Assembly: GCA_031425155.1 (NCBI GenBank)
Contig: JANPIV010000044.1
Location: 7,413-71,412 of the forward strand
Reading direction: 5' to 3'
Source of the DNA: Saprospirales bacterium
Lineage (GTDB): Bacteria; Bacteroidota; Bacteroidia; Chitinophagales; Saprospiraceae
DNA: 64,000 bases
Shown here: positions 42,934 to 49,423 of the stretch, piece by piece
Layout of the letters: every line of letters begins with the position of its first letter
How positions within the stretch are numbered: position 1 is the first letter of the stretch
Position numbers and translations under genes: made by a program
The notes under the pieces: model-generated
Seen by the model: only the letters and a program-made list of their open reading frames with translations
Told to the model about the DNA's origin: nothing
Databases searched by the model: none

Positions 42934-44144
42934 AAAAACTCGATTCCACCTCTCCCGCTTCCGTATCCTGCGATGGCGGTTGCGAGGGTTGTGGCAAAAT
43001 CCACCTTAAACTATTGGGCTCCCATGATGCCGACAGTCAGCTGCTGCGCAAAAACGTGGAAGCCGCCCTCAGCAACTTTCCAATAGCCCACAAAATCATG
43101 GAGGTCGGTGAACCGAACGCCATCGCCGCTGCCGGCGTGGCCACGCTGCCTGCGCTGATGCTCGATGGGCAACTTCTCGTGCAAGGCCGGGTGCCAGCGG
43201 TGGAGGAAATAGTCGGCATGTTACGCGACCATCCGTTGCAGCGCAGCAAGCTCTATCGCTTGCGCAGCATTGCCGTCGCCGTGGACATTAGTACGGGCTC
43301 CGACAGTGCCTTGCGTTTTGCCTGGCATCTCGCTGAAAAAGTAGGTGCCAGCCTGGAAGTGTTGTATGCTATGGACAGTATTTTCGTCGGGCATACGCCT
43401 TCCGCGTCGGGTTTCCTGTCCGGCTATCAGCATACGATGCAGATCGAACTGGATACCTTTATCCAGGAGACAATGGCCCGCATAGGGGTAACGTACGATC
43501 TGCCTGCCCCTGGAGCACCGGGTCAGCAGCAGCAAAACTTACCGGCTATTCATTCCAAAGTGATCTACGGGTTCCCGGATGCGGCCCTGGAGGAATGTTC
43601 CAAACGGGTGGACCTGCTGGTGTTGGGTACGACCGGGCGGGGCGCATTGGGCAAAAAACTTTTTGGTTCGGTCAGTACAGAAGTGTCGAAACAGGCGCAT
43701 TGTCCGGTGCTGCTGGTGCCACCTGATGCCGAGTTCCGGGGTTTGCGGAATATGCTGTATGCCAGCCATTTCGATTCGCTGAGTACTTTGCAGATTCAGC
43801 AGGCAGTCTCGTTTGCACGTCATTTCGATGGGCAACTGCACTTTGTGCATGTCGGGCGGAACAATGACAAAGGGATCGCTTTGCAGCGCAAGCTGTTTGA
43901 AGCAAGTTACCGCGAATCGCAGGCGGAACAGCCGTTTTTGTTCTCCGAAACGGTAGGCGAAGATGTAATAGGCGCGCTGTATGACTATTCTCTTTTCCAC
44001 CGTATCGAACTGCTGGTCTTTGTTACGCACCAGCGCAATGCCTGGGAGAATATTCTCCATCGCAGCGTCACTCGCGAAGCGGCACTCAGTACAGATTATT
44101 TGCCCATTCTTATTATTCATTCGGATGATGATATGGTGGGGTGA
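42930..44144 (+). CDS. Thioredoxin-like (MTH895-type) domain fused to tandem universal stress protein domains
   Basis: 404 aa. N-terminal ..ATLPALMLDGQLLVQGRVPAVEEI.. followed by two USP units (..VLGTTGRGALGKKLFGSVS..). Confidence 0.8.
   Translation: MKKLDSTSPASVSCDGGCEGCGKIHLKLLGSHDADSQLLRKNVEAALSNFPIAHKIMEVGEPNAIAAAGVATLPALMLDGQLLVQGRVPAVEEIVGMLRDHPLQRSKLYRLRSIAVAVDISTGSDSALRFAWHLAEKVGASLEVLYAMDSIFVGHTPSASGFLSGYQHTMQIELDTFIQETMARIGVTYDLPAPGAPGQQQQNLPAIHSKVIYGFPDAALEECSKRVDLLVLGTTGRGALGKKLFGSVSTEVSKQAHCPVLLVPPDAEFRGLRNMLYASHFDSLSTLQIQQAVSFARHFDGQLHFVHVGRNNDKGIALQRKLFEASYRESQAEQPFLFSETVGEDVIGALYDYSLFHRIELLVFVTHQRNAWENILHRSVTREAALSTDYLPILIIHSDDDMVG
43997..44135 (+). repeat. Direct repeat, left copy (last 46 codons of the USP gene)
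   Basis: 133/139 identical to 49285-49423. Confidence 0.9.
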
Positions 44145-44168
44145 TGATCAGAACCAACCAGAAGGCTT

Positions 44169-44624
44169 TCAACGGCTGAACATCTGCAGGAAAGCCTCTT
44201 TCCGGTTGCGGGCCACAGGCAATCGAGTAGCGTTGCTGAGTTCTACCTCGCCTCCATCGCCTTTATTGTAGCGAGTCACAAAATTGAGGTTGACTAAGTA
44301 CTGCTTGTGGGTGCGGAAGAATAACCAGCCTTCGAGCACCTGTTCCATGTCTTTCAAGGGGCGGGAGACGACGACTGTCTGACCGCTGAGGAGATGAACG
44401 TAGGTGTAGTTGCCATCAGACGCGCAATAAAGTATCTGCGTAGTATCTACGAACACCAGCCCTTCGAGGCAAGGCAAGGCGATGTTATGCAGGTTGATAT
44501 AGGTAGCGACTGGGTGCTGTTCGCGCAACAGATGCAACTCTGGAAAATGCTTTTTGAGCAAATACTCAAGAGATACGAGGTAGGTGGGATCGTCGTCCAC
44601 TAGTACGATTTTTAGTATTTTCAT
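44169..44624 (-). CDS. LytTR DNA-binding protein with a vestigial receiver domain
   Basis: 151 aa. Only the first ~35 aa resemble a REC domain (VLVDDDP), then a complete LytTR domain. Confidence 0.75.
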   Translation of the reverse strand: MKILKIVLVDDDPTYLVSLEYLLKKHFPELHLLREQHPVATYINLHNIALPCLEGLVFVDTTQILYCASDGNYTYVHLLSGQTVVVSRPLKDMEQVLEGWLFFRTHKQYLVNLNFVTRYNKGDGGEVELSNATRLPVARNRKEAFLQMFSR

Positions 44625-45100
44625 GGCAAAAAGGGGAGAAGGTGCTCAATTAATTGGGTTAAAGTTTTAGAGAGGAACAACACTACAGTTATTTAGTACC
44701 AGGAAAAAGGTAAAGTGCCACGCCGAAAATTTATCCTACTAACAAAACGTGCGCCAGTAAAACGGCTGTGGGTATTTGGCCATGGTCCAAGTACAGGCCA
44801 GTACTTTCGTCGGGGGGCTCCCAGACGGTCAAAGGAATTTAAGAGGGGTTGCGCATGGGTTGCGGATTTTGAGCAAAAGTAAATCCTGTCTTTTTCCTAT
44901 ACGATAATTTTTTTAGGGATTTCGATTTTCCCATCCAACAGCCGAACCGGCCATTCATCCGCCGAATCCCCCCGTGATACATTGGTCGAGAAGAAGCGCG
45001 GCGGACAATGTTATGTTTGGGTAAAGAAACCGAGGGAGCAGGCTGCCCCCCCCGCCTTACATCCAAATTTGCTTCATATTAAAGATCAGATCATTAAACC

Positions 45101-46063
45101 ATGAAAGGAAAAGTTTTTCATTTCGCCAATGCCAATGACATTTTATCCACTGGCAGATTCCAAACACCCCGCTTTGACGAGGTAAATGAGAAATTCCAGG
45201 TGCAATTTCAGTATAAATTGAAAAGTGCCCCTTTTTTCCCAACCATAGTACTGAGCACGGTAACGAATATCAAAGGAGGGTTCAATCTTTCGATACCGAC
45301 CTTGAACGATGCCTCTGATTGCCAGTTACTGGTCTATCGATTTGAAAACATAAAAATACCGCCCACCAATTTTGAGGTCCCCGTGCCGAATACCCCCGTC
45401 TTCAAGTCAAAGGTTTTTCCCGGCAGCAAGGCGCGCCGGAACCTGAACATCTATTTTTCAAAAATACAAAATGAACTGCTGGACCGGGGCCGGGGCCCAA
45501 ACCAAGACAGCATCATCACGCAAGCAGAAGTGGATACAATGGCTAATGGCTCAAAAGACCAGATAAATGGGGCCACTATTAAGTCGTTGACTGCCACCAT
45601 CTATGACCAACACATTTGGGTGAATACCCTCGCCAATGCCCAGGGAATTGATGCCGTAGTCACCTTTAAACTCATTCCGGTATCCGACACGTCTTTAAAA
45701 GACAACGCTTATCTGGATTTCAATATCGAAGGTTTCGATGTGGATGGGCAAGGCTTTTGGGGAGATCTGTTTCAAATTTGTATAAGCAAGGACGACATCA
45801 AGCGGAAAATAGAAGCAGGTTTCTCCCAAAATATTAGTGGCCTGAACAATGATATTGCCAATGGCATCAAGCAGTTGAACGACTTGGTGAAGGCGAGCAT
45901 GGGCATATCGCCCAACATGACCGCCTCTATTGGCAGATTCTCGTATCCAGTGGTCGGGCAAAATACTATACCCATGCCATTTGGACCGCCAATACAGGTG
46001 CCGATCCGGGCGATCAAGCCCGAAATATTTTTGGGATTCCCTGATTTTAGTTTCTACGCGTAG
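45101..46063 (+). CDS. Hypothetical protein with no signal peptide
   Basis: 320-aa ORF in the lower-GC part of the island. No recognised motif. Confidence 0.55.
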   Translation: MKGKVFHFANANDILSTGRFQTPRFDEVNEKFQVQFQYKLKSAPFFPTIVLSTVTNIKGGFNLSIPTLNDASDCQLLVYRFENIKIPPTNFEVPVPNTPVFKSKVFPGSKARRNLNIYFSKIQNELLDRGRGPNQDSIITQAEVDTMANGSKDQINGATIKSLTATIYDQHIWVNTLANAQGIDAVVTFKLIPVSDTSLKDNAYLDFNIEGFDVDGQGFWGDLFQICISKDDIKRKIEAGFSQNISGLNNDIANGIKQLNDLVKASMGISPNMTASIGRFSYPVVGQNTIPMPFGPPIQVPIRAIKPEIFLGFPDFSFYA

Positions 46064-48225: not shown

Positions 48226-48352
48226 AAAAATTTGGTAGTGTCACCAATTGAGTGATTAAATATTGCAAGATATTGATTGTCAACGCAGTGTTCATTTTCA
48301 TCACTCACAACTTGGCACTACCAAAAATTTCATTATTTAGAATTCCAACACC

Positions 48353-49192
48353 ATGAAAAAGAACCGTTTTGCATTGCCCCTCTTCCTGCTCCTTACCTAC
48401 TGCGCTATCTCTTGTGCGCAGGGAGTCAAACCCACCACCATTGTCCCGGAAAAGGATAAGGGAGAAGTCACTCTTAAAAAGCCATCTTCGACTAGCCCGA
48501 AGACCACTACTCCCCCAGCCCCGGCCAAGAATAAGCCAACCTCCTCCCCTTCTACCACCGAAACCGGTAAGAAAAGAGAACCTGCGAAAGAGCCCGCCAA
48601 ACCAGTCGAAGCCAGCAAGAAAGAGCCTGCCAAAGATGTTGCAAAACCTGCCGAGAAAGCAACACCTGCCCCTGCTCCTACCCCGGCCAAGACGACGGCG
48701 ACGGAACAACCTCCAAAACCGGCCAGCCTGCCGCCAGCAAAGGCCCTACCCAGCGATGCTTGCGACAAATGCCAGGGCGAAGGTTCCGTGGTCAAAAAAG
48801 TAAAGTGCCAGATATGTGGCGGCGACGGCCGGAAAGACTCGACCATCCCCTGTCAGACCTGCCAGGGCAGTGGGTTTTCCAGCACCGAAAAGTGCTTTCA
48901 TTGCAAGGGCCTGACCTATCGGGAAGGCAGCGATAAGTGCTTCAGCTGTAGTGGCACAGGAAAAAAATGGGAATCAGACGAAAAATGTAATAAATGTGGG
49001 GGCGATGGCAAAGTTACGCCCGACCCTTGTTCCTTTTGCAAAGCCACCGGCAAAGCAGAGTGTGATGCTTGTCGGGGAACAGGCACCATAAAAACTGGCA
49101 AATTAGCCTGCGAAGACTGCCACGGTACCGGCCGTTTCGACGAGCGGGAAAAGTGCAAAGCCTGTAAAGGATCGGGGAAAAAGAAATCCTGA
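48353..49192 (+). CDS. Lipoprotein with a Pro/Lys/Thr-rich linker and ten DnaJ-type CxxCxGxG zinc-finger motifs
   Basis: Signal/lipobox. Low-complexity region at residues ~30-130, then CDKCQGEG, CQICGGDG, CQTCQGSG .. CKACKGSG. Confidence 0.75.
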   Translation: MKKNRFALPLFLLLTYCAISCAQGVKPTTIVPEKDKGEVTLKKPSSTSPKTTTPPAPAKNKPTSSPSTTETGKKREPAKEPAKPVEASKKEPAKDVAKPAEKATPAPAPTPAKTTATEQPPKPASLPPAKALPSDACDKCQGEGSVVKKVKCQICGGDGRKDSTIPCQTCQGSGFSSTEKCFHCKGLTYREGSDKCFSCSGTGKKWESDEKCNKCGGDGKVTPDPCSFCKATGKAECDACRGTGTIKTGKLACEDCHGTGRFDEREKCKACKGSGKKKS

Positions 49193-49284
49193 CCAACACC
49201 ACATCAATTATTACTGAAATATATGGCTCTTTGACAATTTTTGTGGTGCAGCCTCATGAAAGTAGCGTATGTCGGCCGATGTAG

Positions 49285-49423
49285 CCACCGTATCGAACTG
49301 CTGGTCTTTGTTACGCACCAGCGCAATGCCTGGGAGAATATTCTCCATCGCAGCGTCACCCGCGAAGCGGCACTCAGTACGGACTATTTGCCCATCCTCA
49401 TTATCCATTCGGATGATGATATG
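49285..49423 (+). repeat. Direct repeat, right copy (displaced USP gene 3' end, frame intact)
   Basis: Encodes ..HRIELLVFVTHQRNAWENILHRSVTREAALSTDYLPILIIHSDDDMP*. All six differences from the left copy are synonymous. Confidence 0.9.

What the first reader, a model, noticed from the sequence alone, without database searches (positions are those of the whole stretch)
43997..49423. 5.1-kb orphan-gene island bracketed by a 139-bp direct repeat of a gene 3' end; all six differences are synonymous
Positions 43997-44135 (the last 46 codons of the Trx-USP gene) recur at 49285-49423 with 133/139 identity. All six mismatches are third-position synonymous changes. The downstream copy keeps the frame to its own stop (..DDDMP* versus ..DDDMVG*). 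So the two copies diverged under coding constraint in separate lineages and were then joined. This is the footprint of an element that integrates into a gene's 3' end and brings a replacement end with it. The intervening 44136-49284 is lower in GC in its centre. It encodes only unusual proteins: a LytTR regulator with a vestigial receiver, a 320-aa unknown, a 50-aa ORF, a secreted DUF5648-repeat protein, an EAD-like/TM/TPR protein, and a lipoprotein with ten CxxCxGxG motifs. No integrase, transposase or tRNA is present, so the island is either decayed, mobilised in trans, or acquired by homologous exchange. The functional theme of the cargo is unknown. It may be a self-contained module of exported proteins plus a dedicated regulator.
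Basis: seen in the sequence. Interest (0 to 1): 0.65.

Follow-up and report, generated by a model that had tools for sequence, protein, structure and literature searches.

The report
Island flanked by duplicated gene end
In an uncultured Saprospiraceae genome, a 5.3-kb block of strain-specific genes sits between the working end of a stress-protein gene and a stranded second copy of that end; this is the known footprint of DNA inserted by a single crossover inside the gene, but here with no recombinase gene and no sign that the block is a recurrent mobile element.

Summary
Window 43997-44135 recurs at 49285-49423 with 133/139 identity, and all six differences are third-position and synonymous. 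An independent k=31 assembly of run SRR20217183 breaks exactly at the 75-nt exact core of the repeat.

In-place decay of the downstream copy is disfavoured (P about 0.002-0.011), so two alleles that diverged as working genes were joined. The topology fits a Campbell-type single crossover. Copy A then carries the incoming tail, stop codon and island. Copy B keeps its own stop, a 13-bp terminator hairpin and a promoter box for the next gene.

The mobile-element reading is only partly supported:
- No integrase, transposase or tRNA was found in the island, its gaps or the 18.5-41 kb stretch to its left.
- GC, GC3 and tetranucleotide usage are host-like.
- The island has no relatives in plasmid, phage or IMG/VR collections.
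- Every island protein whose exact sequence is on record forms a single-member 90% cluster.
- No conspecific genome exists, so no empty site can be shown. In all relatives the two flanking core blocks are not adjacent.

I conclude it is a one-off insertion from a sister lineage, with the crossover enzyme unresolved. It is a new instance of a known kind (e14/icd-like, CIME-like) and of modest interest.

The parts
42930..44144 (+). Trx-USP gene (404 aa; Thioredoxin_3 + Usp), intact. It is the last gene of the conserved trio RR-cNMP-Crp / CBS / Trx-USP.
   Evidence: Pfam. The trio is conserved in 15 Saprospiraceae/Lewinellaceae loci. Homology to L008 runs to 44146.
43997..44135 (+). Repeat copy A, inside the working gene (codons HRIELL...DDDM).
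43997..44071 (+). The 75-nt core of the repeat that is identical in both copies (its partner is 49285-49359). It is the inferred crossover zone.
   Evidence: Logan unitigs break 30 nt inside it on each side.
44072..44146 (+). Tail of copy A plus VG, the stop and 2 nt. It carries six T/A third-position states that are mostly derived. In the Campbell model this is the incoming allele.
44147..49284 (.). Strain-specific island (5138 nt), absent from all relatives examined. The repeat unit (start-to-start spacing) is 5288 nt.
   Evidence: An independent contig, L027, spans it.
44169..44624 (-). 151-aa LytTR DNA-binding protein with a short N-terminal stub. It converges on USP with 24 nt between the two stops.
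   Evidence: Pfam LytTR at residues 55-149, E=2e-17. NCBIfam matches only the LytTR part of BtsR.
45101..46063 (+). 320-aa protein of a very rare family, with no Pfam match and no known fold. It is transcribed divergently from the LytTR gene.
46127..46279 (+). 50-aa ORF (GC 0.36). An independent gene caller also called it on the Logan contig.
46348..46380 (+). DUF805b RNA motif (Rfam RF02914), 15 nt upstream of the DUF5648 ORF.
   Evidence: 36.8 bits against a gathering score of 35.6, E=8e-7.
46395..47258 (+). Secreted DUF5648-domain protein (287 aa from the TTG start; 283 aa as called on the Logan contig).
47356..48225 (+). EAD11 (effector-associated domain 11) protein with TPR repeats, 289 aa.
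   Evidence: Pfam EAD11 at residues 4-80, E=3e-10, plus TPR_1 and TPR_2. No second EAD11 protein in the window.
48353..49192 (+). 279-aa predicted lipoprotein. It has a Pro/Thr/Lys-rich linker and repeated DnaJ-type CXXCXGXG zinc-finger motifs.
49206..49224 (+). 19-mer AATTATTACTGAAATATAT. The same 19-mer lies about 210 nt downstream of the USP stop in the L008-type species. It marks the island's right edge as homologous to USP-downstream spacer.
   Evidence: E=8e-5; single copy; absent from the 33 other loci.
49285..49429 (+). Repeat copy B (49285-49423) plus its own Pro codon and stop. It is a promoterless 3' fragment of a USP allele, with no nonsynonymous change and no frameshift.
49473..49510 (+). 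13-bp stem / 5-nt loop hairpin followed by UUUUCUG. It is an intrinsic-terminator-like element that would serve copy B's stop codon.
   Evidence: z=-2.7 to -3.0. No comparable hairpin follows copy A or the L008 stop.
49561..49568 (+). TAtcTTTG, which matches the Bacteroidota -7 promoter box (consensus recalled from my own knowledge). It lies 58 nt upstream of the next gene's ATG.
   Evidence: Sequence read. The consensus was not tested here.
49627..50433 (+). First gene of core block 3 (268 aa, followed by SecG). Homology to relatives begins at 49601-49621. In all relatives this gene follows GuaA-LptE.

Best explanation
The structure is the scar of one Campbell-type (single-crossover) insertion. 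A circular DNA of about 5.3 kb came from a closely related Saprospiraceae lineage. It carried the last ~150 nt of that lineage's Trx-USP gene (repeat, VG, stop), the six downstream genes, and a little USP-downstream spacer that includes the 19-mer. It recombined with the resident Trx-USP gene inside the 75-nt stretch where the two alleles are identical.

The result is as follows. The working gene is a hybrid: resident up to about 44071 and incoming from 44072, with the incoming stop codon. The island follows it. The resident's own gene end, with its stop, terminator and the promoter of the next gene, is displaced 5.3 kb downstream as copy B.

Shown: the repeat itself, the synonymous-only divergence, the sharp left edge of copy B, the gene-end features after copy B, and the absence of the island from relatives. 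Inferred: the circular intermediate, the direction of transfer, and the enzyme.

The island is not an autonomous mobile element. I lean about 60:40 toward host RecA acting on a circularised chromosomal fragment, over a tyrosine integrase supplied in trans or since lost (a CIME-like state). The 75-nt exact repeat still allows RecA to delete the island precisely. That would leave a working USP gene ending in ...DDDMP.

For the cargo, the best guess is a small regulator-plus-exported-proteins module. In it, the LytTR protein controls the divergent 320-aa gene.
For: - Repeat and synonymous-only differences.
- In-place decay of B is disfavoured at P=0.002-0.011.
- Copy B's left edge is an abrupt junction in mid-gene with no microhomology, as expected of a circle junction.
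- Copy B is followed by its own stop, a 13-bp terminator hairpin (z=-3.0) and a -7 box. Copy A abuts a convergent gene with no hairpin.
- All six differences lie to one side of a 75-nt exact block (P=0.007). This is expected if the crossover needed perfect identity.
- The island lies between two landmarks, USP stop+2 and the 19-mer, that are 210 nt apart in the L008-type species. So the incoming piece looks like a chromosomal USP-downstream segment of a relative.
- Host-like GC, GC3 and tetranucleotides, and 96% identity between the alleles, point to a close relative as donor.
- The repeat node and the island-to-repeat junction are confirmed in an independent assembly.
- C-termini after DDDM vary naturally in the family, so ...DDDMP* is a plausible native end.
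- Cargo: two of three contexts of remote 320-aa homologues have a LytS-type kinase and a LytTR regulator within 5 kb.
Against: - No empty site (USP ...DDDMP* directly followed by 49424 onward) could be found, because no conspecific genome is public.
- In every relative the right-flank block follows GuaA-LptE. The assumed resident arrangement, USP next to that block, is therefore itself unverified and needs an earlier rearrangement.
- Copy A's last 11 nt equal L008's while copy B's do not. On parsimony alone this makes A look ancestral.
- Zero differences in 75 nt against six in 64 nt is uneven. It needs either crossover selection for identity or later gene conversion.
- No recombinase, no att-like arm repeats, and no circular form were seen.
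- The LytTR association rests on three contexts only.
Confidence: 0.5

Rival explanations
1. One-ended (homology-facilitated illegitimate) import in the other direction. USP with copy A, the island and the 19-mer spacer are resident. Copy B is the ragged left end of a DNA fragment from a sister lineage in which USP (...DDDMP*, terminator) lay next to the SecG block. That fragment was anchored by homologous recombination somewhere to the right of 49621. Its left end was joined illegitimately at 49284/49285.
For: - Copy A, including its last 11 nt, matches the L008 orthologue, and copy B's end does not.
- The island has host-like composition.
- No recombinase is needed.
- Copy B's left edge is an abrupt junction.
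- The 19-mer ties the island's right edge to USP-downstream spacer.
Against: - It gives no reason for the 75-nt block of perfect identity next to six differences (P=0.007).
- It needs a donor with USP adjacent to the SecG block, an arrangement seen in no relative.
- In the described cases that I recall (not checked here), such imports usually delete recipient DNA rather than leave a duplicated segment.
Confidence: 0.2
2. Decayed or trans-mobilised site-specific element in the strict sense. Under this reading the island is the remnant of an integrase-bearing island that targets the USP 3' end and supplies a replacement end. It would have lost its integrase, or it relies on one encoded elsewhere in the genome. 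This is a sub-case of the best explanation that differs only in the enzyme. It is scored separately here as the claim 'it is a mobile element'.
For: - The footprint is the same as e14 at icd, where the working gene extends into the element and a C-terminal pseudogene sits at the far end (PMC13626634).
- It also matches CIMEs, which keep their att sites but no recombination genes and measure 1.2-13 kb (PMC7563491).
- The homology carried by the island side ends 2 nt after the stop codon, as a replacement end should.
Against: - No integrase or remnant in the island genes or its gaps, nor in the 18.5-41 kb stretch to its left. The rest of the window was not scanned for recombinases.
- No ICE or IME lies in tandem.
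- The island DNA, the four island proteins scanned and the USP tail have no relatives in plasmids, phages or IMG/VR.
- The five island proteins on record form single-member clusters among 15 billion proteins.
- Composition is host-like.
- Six ORFs fill the island, leaving no room for a recent integrase deletion.
Confidence: 0.2
3. In-place events only. A segment of the USP 3' end was duplicated during a local rearrangement that joined the USP block to the SecG block. The six differences arose later, either by substitutions in copy A or by a short homologous import into copy A's tail.
For: - At five of the six sites copy B has the state seen in L008, and mostly the state seen in L009 and L010. 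The changes therefore map to copy A, and copy B looks frozen.
- The locus is a synteny breakpoint.
Against: - A neutral copy B should have changed faster than A, at all codon positions. Six of six synonymous has P=0.002-0.011.
- No known mechanism copies an internal 139-nt gene piece to a spot 5 kb downstream with these flanks. A target-site-type duplication predicts the native stop after the right copy, and the opposite is seen.
Confidence: 0.08
4. Assembly or strain-mixture artefact. The true molecules would be a chromosome with USP-core-Btail-SecG block (an empty site) plus a separate 5288-bp circle or tandem array. The contig threads the circle into the chromosome.
For: With a 75-nt exact core, the k=31 graph is equally compatible with both solutions. 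The source is a metagenome-assembled genome.
Against: - Ordinary 100-150-nt reads span a 75-nt repeat, and the deposited 71.7-kb contig resolves it.
- The circle would have no replication gene.
- The island-to-repeat junction is real in reads, so a second repeat copy exists in some molecule in any case.
Confidence: 0.06

Closest known systems
Cryptic prophage e14 (and phage 21) integrated in the 3' end of icd in Escherichia coli K-12, with the icdC pseudogene
   Same: The working gene runs into the inserted DNA, which supplies its last codons. A C-terminal fragment of the same gene lies at the far end as a direct repeat. The two ends differ mainly by synonymous or conservative changes. Deletion between the repeats restores a working chimeric gene (PMC13626634).
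   Different: e14 is 15 kb and encodes its own site-specific recombination system, and it excises on SOS induction. The island here is 5.1 kb with no recombinase and no phage genes, and its excision has not been shown.
Cis-mobilizable elements (CIMEs) of streptococci, for example at the 3' ends of fda, rpsI and rpmG
   Same: They are small (1.2-13 kb) cargo-only elements in the 3' end of a protein gene. They are flanked by retained att repeats and have no recombination or conjugation genes (PMC7563491).
   Different: CIMEs are recognised by descent from, or tandem accretion with, an ICE or IME whose integrase acts on the same att sites. No ICE, IME or integrase was identified in the parts of this window examined. 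No related element was found anywhere. The phylum is Bacteroidota, not Firmicutes.
Campbell-type insertion-duplication by homologous recombination (the natural counterpart of insertion-duplication mutagenesis with a circular fragment)
   Same: A single crossover between a circle that carries an internal or 3' gene fragment and the chromosomal gene yields direct repeats of exactly that fragment around the insert. One junction is abrupt, and the crossover falls in a stretch of perfect identity. No dedicated recombinase is needed. This fits.
   Different: It is described mainly as a laboratory procedure (my own knowledge; not checked in the literature here). A natural circularisation of a 5.3-kb chromosomal fragment is inferred here, not observed.
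Homology-facilitated illegitimate recombination during natural transformation (Acinetobacter, Streptococcus pneumoniae; recalled from memory, not read here)
   Same: Foreign DNA is anchored by one homologous segment from a relative and joined at the other end without homology. This needs no mobile-element genes.
   Different: The usual outcome is insertion with deletion of recipient DNA, not a flanking direct repeat. It does not explain the exact 75-nt block.

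Membership tests
Integrative element that replaces the 3' end of its target gene (e14/icd type) | Direct repeats made of the target gene's 3' end flank the inserted DNA, and the target gene stays intact | tested here: met
   139-nt repeat, 133/139 identity. The USP ORF is intact at 404 aa.
Integrative element that replaces the 3' end of its target gene (e14/icd type) | The element encodes a site-specific recombinase (integrase), usually next to an att site | tested here: not met
   Pfam, NCBIfam, PHROGs and PADLOC on all six products, and Pfam on the ORFs in the gaps, give no recombinase. The 320-aa orphan has no recombinase-like fold.
Integrative element that replaces the 3' end of its target gene (e14/icd type) | An empty site exists in related genomes, with the gene followed directly by the sequence after the right repeat | tested here: inconclusive
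   No conspecific genome is public. The closest species has USP followed by an 876-aa T9SS protein. The right-flank block follows GuaA-LptE in all relatives.
Integrative element that replaces the 3' end of its target gene (e14/icd type) | Excision to a circle and a restored junction | not testable with these tools
   The k=31 unitigs are compatible with both states. Raw reads cannot be mapped here.
Cis-mobilizable element (CIME) | Flanking att repeats are retained, and no recombination or conjugation genes remain | tested here: met
   Definition from PMC7563491.
Cis-mobilizable element (CIME) | Derived from, or in tandem with, an ICE or IME whose integrase recognises the same att sites | tested here: not met
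   No ICE or IME genes in the island, its flanks or the 18.5-41 kb stretch. The remaining ORFs of the 64-kb window were not scanned. The island has no relatives in plasmids, phages or IMG/VR. The rest of the genome could not be examined.
Campbell-type homologous insertion-duplication | The repeat equals the homology segment carried by the insert, with one abrupt junction and the crossover in a run of perfect identity | tested here: met
   Sharp edge at 49284/49285 with no microhomology. The exact 75-nt core has all differences to one side.
Campbell-type homologous insertion-duplication | The donor is a close relative, so the inserted DNA looks native in composition | tested here: met
   96% identity between alleles. 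GC, GC3 and tetranucleotides lie within the host range. The 19-mer links the island edge to USP-downstream spacer of a related species.
In-place segmental duplication with a decaying pseudogene copy | The unconstrained copy accumulates changes at all codon positions, at least as fast as the working copy | tested here: not met
   Six of six differences are synonymous (P=0.002-0.011). Copy B's own branch is about zero.
Transposon or insertion sequence with a target-site duplication | Transposase, terminal inverted repeats, and a short (2-15 bp) identical duplication | tested here: not met
   No transposase. No terminal inverted repeats or shared 10-mers at the island ends. The repeat is 139 nt and not identical.

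The most novel reading that the evidence does not exclude
The island could be an active mobile cassette that lacks an integrase. It would carry a ~150-nt copy of a host gene's end as its only 'attachment site'. It would move in and out of the USP gene either through host RecA alone or through an unrecognised recombinase among its orphan products. Candidates are the 320-aa protein, which has no known fold, and the stub-receiver LytTR protein that sits next to the left repeat. The k=31 graph of SRR20217183 would then reflect coexisting integrated and circular forms.
Probability: 0.05. Interest if true: 0.7.

Novelty: new member of a known kind. Interest (0 to 1): 0.3.

Why it matters
The case shows from sequence alone that two alleles of one gene end, which diverged as working genes in separate genomes, now sit 5.3 kb apart in one chromosome. 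That is direct evidence of DNA exchange between sister lineages of uncultured Saprospiraceae. It happened at a locus (RR-Crp/CBS/Trx-USP, next to a nos cluster) whose downstream side differs in every relative examined.

It is also a caution. The classic 'integrative element' footprint can be present with no recombinase and no foreign composition, so island finders that rely on integrases, tRNAs or GC would miss it. An e14-like reading should not be assumed without an empty site.

The cargo adds a very rare protein family with no known fold that tends to lie near LytTR regulators, and a DUF805b RNA in an unusual gene context. None of this opens a long-standing question.

Tried and rejected
- Empty-site search: the genome and metagenome scans with USP, the exact-protein look-ups for USP, CBS, SecG, the right-flank gene and island genes, the homologue searches for USP and the right-flank gene and the cluster look-ups found no conspecific. 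The nearest relatives are a different species (85% nucleotide identity) with different neighbours.
- Island as a conserved block elsewhere: rejected. The five island proteins on record form single-member 90% clusters (the CxxC protein's exact sequence is not in that table). The 320-aa protein has only 15 remote relatives, and their contexts share at most a LytTR regulator.
- Phage, plasmid or defence origin: none found with PADLOC, PHROGs, four IMG/VR protein scans plus one with the USP tail, and BLAST of the island DNA against plasmids and phages.
- Recombinase remnants in the non-coding gaps: none.
- Arm-type or terminal repeats at the island ends: none.
- Foreign composition: rejected.
- Copy B's flanks as one continuous homologue of L008's post-USP spacer with B inserted into it: only the 19-mer is significant. 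Two mutually exclusive gapped alignments of the post-B stretch reach only p=0.02-0.03.
- Fold assignment for the 320-aa protein: the model is confident (pLDDT 79), but no PDB or BFVD match has a TM-score above 0.25 over its length.
- A larger inversion that would place GuaA-LptE elsewhere in the window: not found.

Full report
**1. The observation**

The longest direct repeat in 42000-51500 is 43997-44135 and 49285-49423, 139 nt at 96% identity. A base-by-base comparison gives 133/139. The six mismatches (44072, 44093, 44096, 44108, 44111, 44117) all fall on codon position 3 of the 42930-44144 ORF and are all synonymous. Copy A has T or A where copy B has C or G. Copy A continues ...DDDMVG*, and copy B continues in frame to ...DDDMP*. 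Homology stops abruptly on both sides, with no microhomology and no other copy in the window.

Three details need correcting:
- The repeat does not include the last two codons and the stop of the working gene.
- All differences lie in the last 64 nt, and the first 75 nt are identical.
- The 'low GC centre' is intergenic DNA plus the 50-aa ORF.

The island genes have GC 0.497 and GC3 0.574, against 0.511 and 0.577 for the core genes around them. By tetranucleotide distance, 19% of equal-sized windows are at least as atypical. The domain calls for the cargo are right, and the window holds no tRNA.

**2. Is the repeat real?**

The window comes from a 71,749-bp contig of an NCBI Saprospiraceae MAG. 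Logan unitigs assembled independently from run SRR20217183 match it at 100%. One covers 42126-44026 and stops 30 nt into the exact core. Another covers 44042-49314, from 30 nt before the first A/B mismatch, through the whole island, to 30 nt into copy B. That is how a k=31 graph behaves at a true 75-nt exact repeat. It also proves that reads join the island's right end to the first base of the repeat. At k=31 the graph cannot tell the integrated form from a 5288-bp circle plus an empty site. Only read mapping can.

**3. Two alleles, not in-place decay**

Suppose copy B had been a neutral pseudogene since a local duplication. The chance that six of six fixed differences look synonymous is then 0.002-0.011, depending on transition bias. 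If both copies were neutral it is below 0.001. At five of the six sites copy B carries the state seen in the L008-type species. At most of them it also carries the state seen in L009 and L010. Copy B's own branch is therefore about zero, and the changes map to copy A's tail. That is the opposite of a decaying copy.

**4. Context in relatives**

The trio RR-cNMP-Crp / CBS / Trx-USP is conserved in 15 Saprospiraceae/Lewinellaceae loci. Synteny ends at the USP stop in all of them. The closest species is represented by L008, L030 and L031, at 85% nucleotide identity over 40201-44146. In it, USP is followed by a 374-nt spacer and an 876-aa T9SS protein.

The genes right of the island (49601-58589) are collinear with L029, L016 and L020. 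There they always follow GuaA-LptE, and homology to the window starts at 49601-49621. GuaA and LptE are not in the window. So the island plus copy B lies between two core blocks that are adjacent in no available relative.

No conspecific exists. The best other USP is 87% identical and the best right-flank protein 83%. The five island proteins whose exact sequence is on record each form a single-member 90% cluster among about 15 billion proteins. The empty-site test therefore cannot be done with public data.

**5. What flanks each copy**

Copy B is followed by its own stop at 49427-49429. Next comes a 13-bp-stem hairpin with a U-run at 49473-49510 (z=-2.7 to -3.0). A TAtcTTTG box at 49561-49568 follows, 58 nt before the next ATG. 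This looks like a genuine gene end.

Copy A is followed by VG, a stop, and then a convergent LytTR gene 24 nt away, with no hairpin. Residues after DDDM vary across the family (LG, LK, L, VV, LP and others), so ...DDDMP* is a credible native end.

Against this, copy A's last 11 nt (GTGGGGTGATG) are identical to L008's, while copy B's are unrelated.

A new landmark also emerged. The 19-mer AATTATTACTGAAATATAT lies at 49206-49224, 14 nt after the last island gene and 60 nt before copy B. It is identical to a site about 210 nt downstream of the USP stop in all three L008-type loci. It occurs nowhere else in the window or in the 33 other loci, 379 kb in all 38 (E=8e-5). Relative to that species, the island therefore lies between two points of the USP-downstream spacer. 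The stretch after copy B shows only borderline and mutually exclusive similarity to that spacer (p=0.02-0.03).

**6. Mechanism**

Direct repeats of a gene-end fragment around an insert, with one abrupt junction, are what a single crossover between a circle and the chromosome produces. In that topology, what follows copy A is incoming and what follows copy B is resident.

The incoming piece would be a segment of a sister lineage's chromosome. It runs from inside USP, through the stop and the six genes, to 60 nt past the 19-mer. This explains several features:
- the host-like composition;
- the L008-like stop on copy A;
- the 19-mer;
- the gene-end features after copy B;
- the one-sided differences, if the crossover occurred in the 75-nt exact block (clustering P=0.007).

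It does not need a recombinase, and none was found:
- none in the six products;
- none in the gaps;
- none in the 18.5-41 kb stretch to the left, which encodes Pst, YceI and a nos cluster;
- none suggested by the fold of the 320-aa orphan.

I put this explanation at 0.5, with the enzyme unresolved (RecA about 60:40 over an integrase in trans or lost).

The main rival (0.2) reverses the direction. In it the island is resident and copy B is the ragged end of an imported fragment anchored further right. This fits copy A's ancestral-looking end but not the exact block. In-place events (0.08) and an assembly or strain-mixture artefact (0.06) are less likely.

**7. Is it a mobile element?**

The footprint matches e14 at icd/icdC (PMC13626634). 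The gene content matches the definition of a CIME (PMC7563491). The defining extras fail or cannot be tested:
- no integrase;
- no ICE or IME in tandem;
- no second instance anywhere;
- no demonstrated empty site or circle.

I therefore file it as working like those systems, not as a member of either.

**8. Cargo**

The LytTR protein (151 aa) has only a short N-terminal stub before its DNA-binding domain.

The divergent 320-aa protein belongs to a family of 16 representatives among 1.8 billion. AlphaFold with a 14-sequence alignment gives pLDDT 79 and pTM 0.77. The model is mostly beta with one long helix and has no PDB or BFVD match. Two of three contexts of its remote homologues contain a LytS-type kinase and a LytTR regulator within 5 kb, and the third has a divergent AraC regulator. 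That hints at regulator-target coupling.

The other products are a secreted DUF5648 protein preceded by a DUF805b RNA motif, an EAD11+TPR protein with no EAD11 partner in the window, and a lipoprotein with DnaJ-type zinc-finger repeats. No defence-system model matches. A regulator plus exported proteins is the best guess, and it is weakly supported.

**9. Verdict**

This is a new instance of a known kind of scar, with the unusual feature that nothing else marks the DNA as mobile. Interest is modest (0.3). The decisive experiment is simple read mapping across the 75-nt core, together with finding a conspecific genome.

Noticed in passing
window 46348-46380 (+): An Rfam DUF805b RNA motif (36.8 bits, just above the gathering score of 35.6) lies 15 nt upstream of the DUF5648 gene, not upstream of a DUF805 gene. 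It sits in the lowest-GC part of the island.
   Followed up: partly
window 49206-49224; L008 4263-4281; L031 6417-6435; L030 2302-2320: An identical 19-mer, AATTATTACTGAAATATAT, is shared only between the island's right edge and the USP-downstream spacer of the L008-type species. Its function is unknown. In L008 it runs into a TAtaTTTG box.
   Followed up: yes
window 18520-41267: A 22.8-kb segment (Omp85-like, Pst phosphate transporter, YceI, epimerase, cytochrome c, NosZ/NosL/NosD and ABC genes, fasciclin) separates two blocks that abut directly in L004 and L010. So the nos cluster next to the RR-Crp/CBS/Trx-USP trio is itself variable. No recombinase was found in it.
   Followed up: partly
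window 48226-48330: A 35-nt imperfect inverted repeat (74% complementary, 35-nt spacer) fills the gap between the EAD11-TPR gene and the CXXCXGXG lipoprotein gene. It could be a terminator or a regulatory hairpin.
   Followed up: no
window 45101-46063 (+); P0242-P0256: The 320-aa protein defines a family of only 16 representatives in 1.8 billion. It gives a confident AlphaFold model (pLDDT 79) with no match in PDB or BFVD. Two of three homologue contexts have a LytS-type kinase and a LytTR regulator nearby.
   Followed up: partly
window 50764-50797 and 50918-50963: There are palindromic sequences between SecG and the convergent glucosaminidase gene. One 34-nt stretch matches relatives at 100% in inverted orientation, and a 22-nt-arm palindrome is 95% complementary. 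They are probably a conserved bidirectional terminator.
   Followed up: no
L008 4100-4160: The L008 spacer after USP carries two tandem copies of a ~33-nt unit (GACCTCCCGATTTTT(T)C(C)AGCGG(G)AAAGGCAA). It shares the 11-mer TTTTCCAGCGG with the hairpin after copy B in the window. The similarity is borderline (p about 0.03-0.05).
   Followed up: partly
L008 6946-7196 (-): The end of the L008 contig holds a short-period repeat that translates to (C)PLPFAL units in several frames. It is unrelated to the finding.
   Followed up: no
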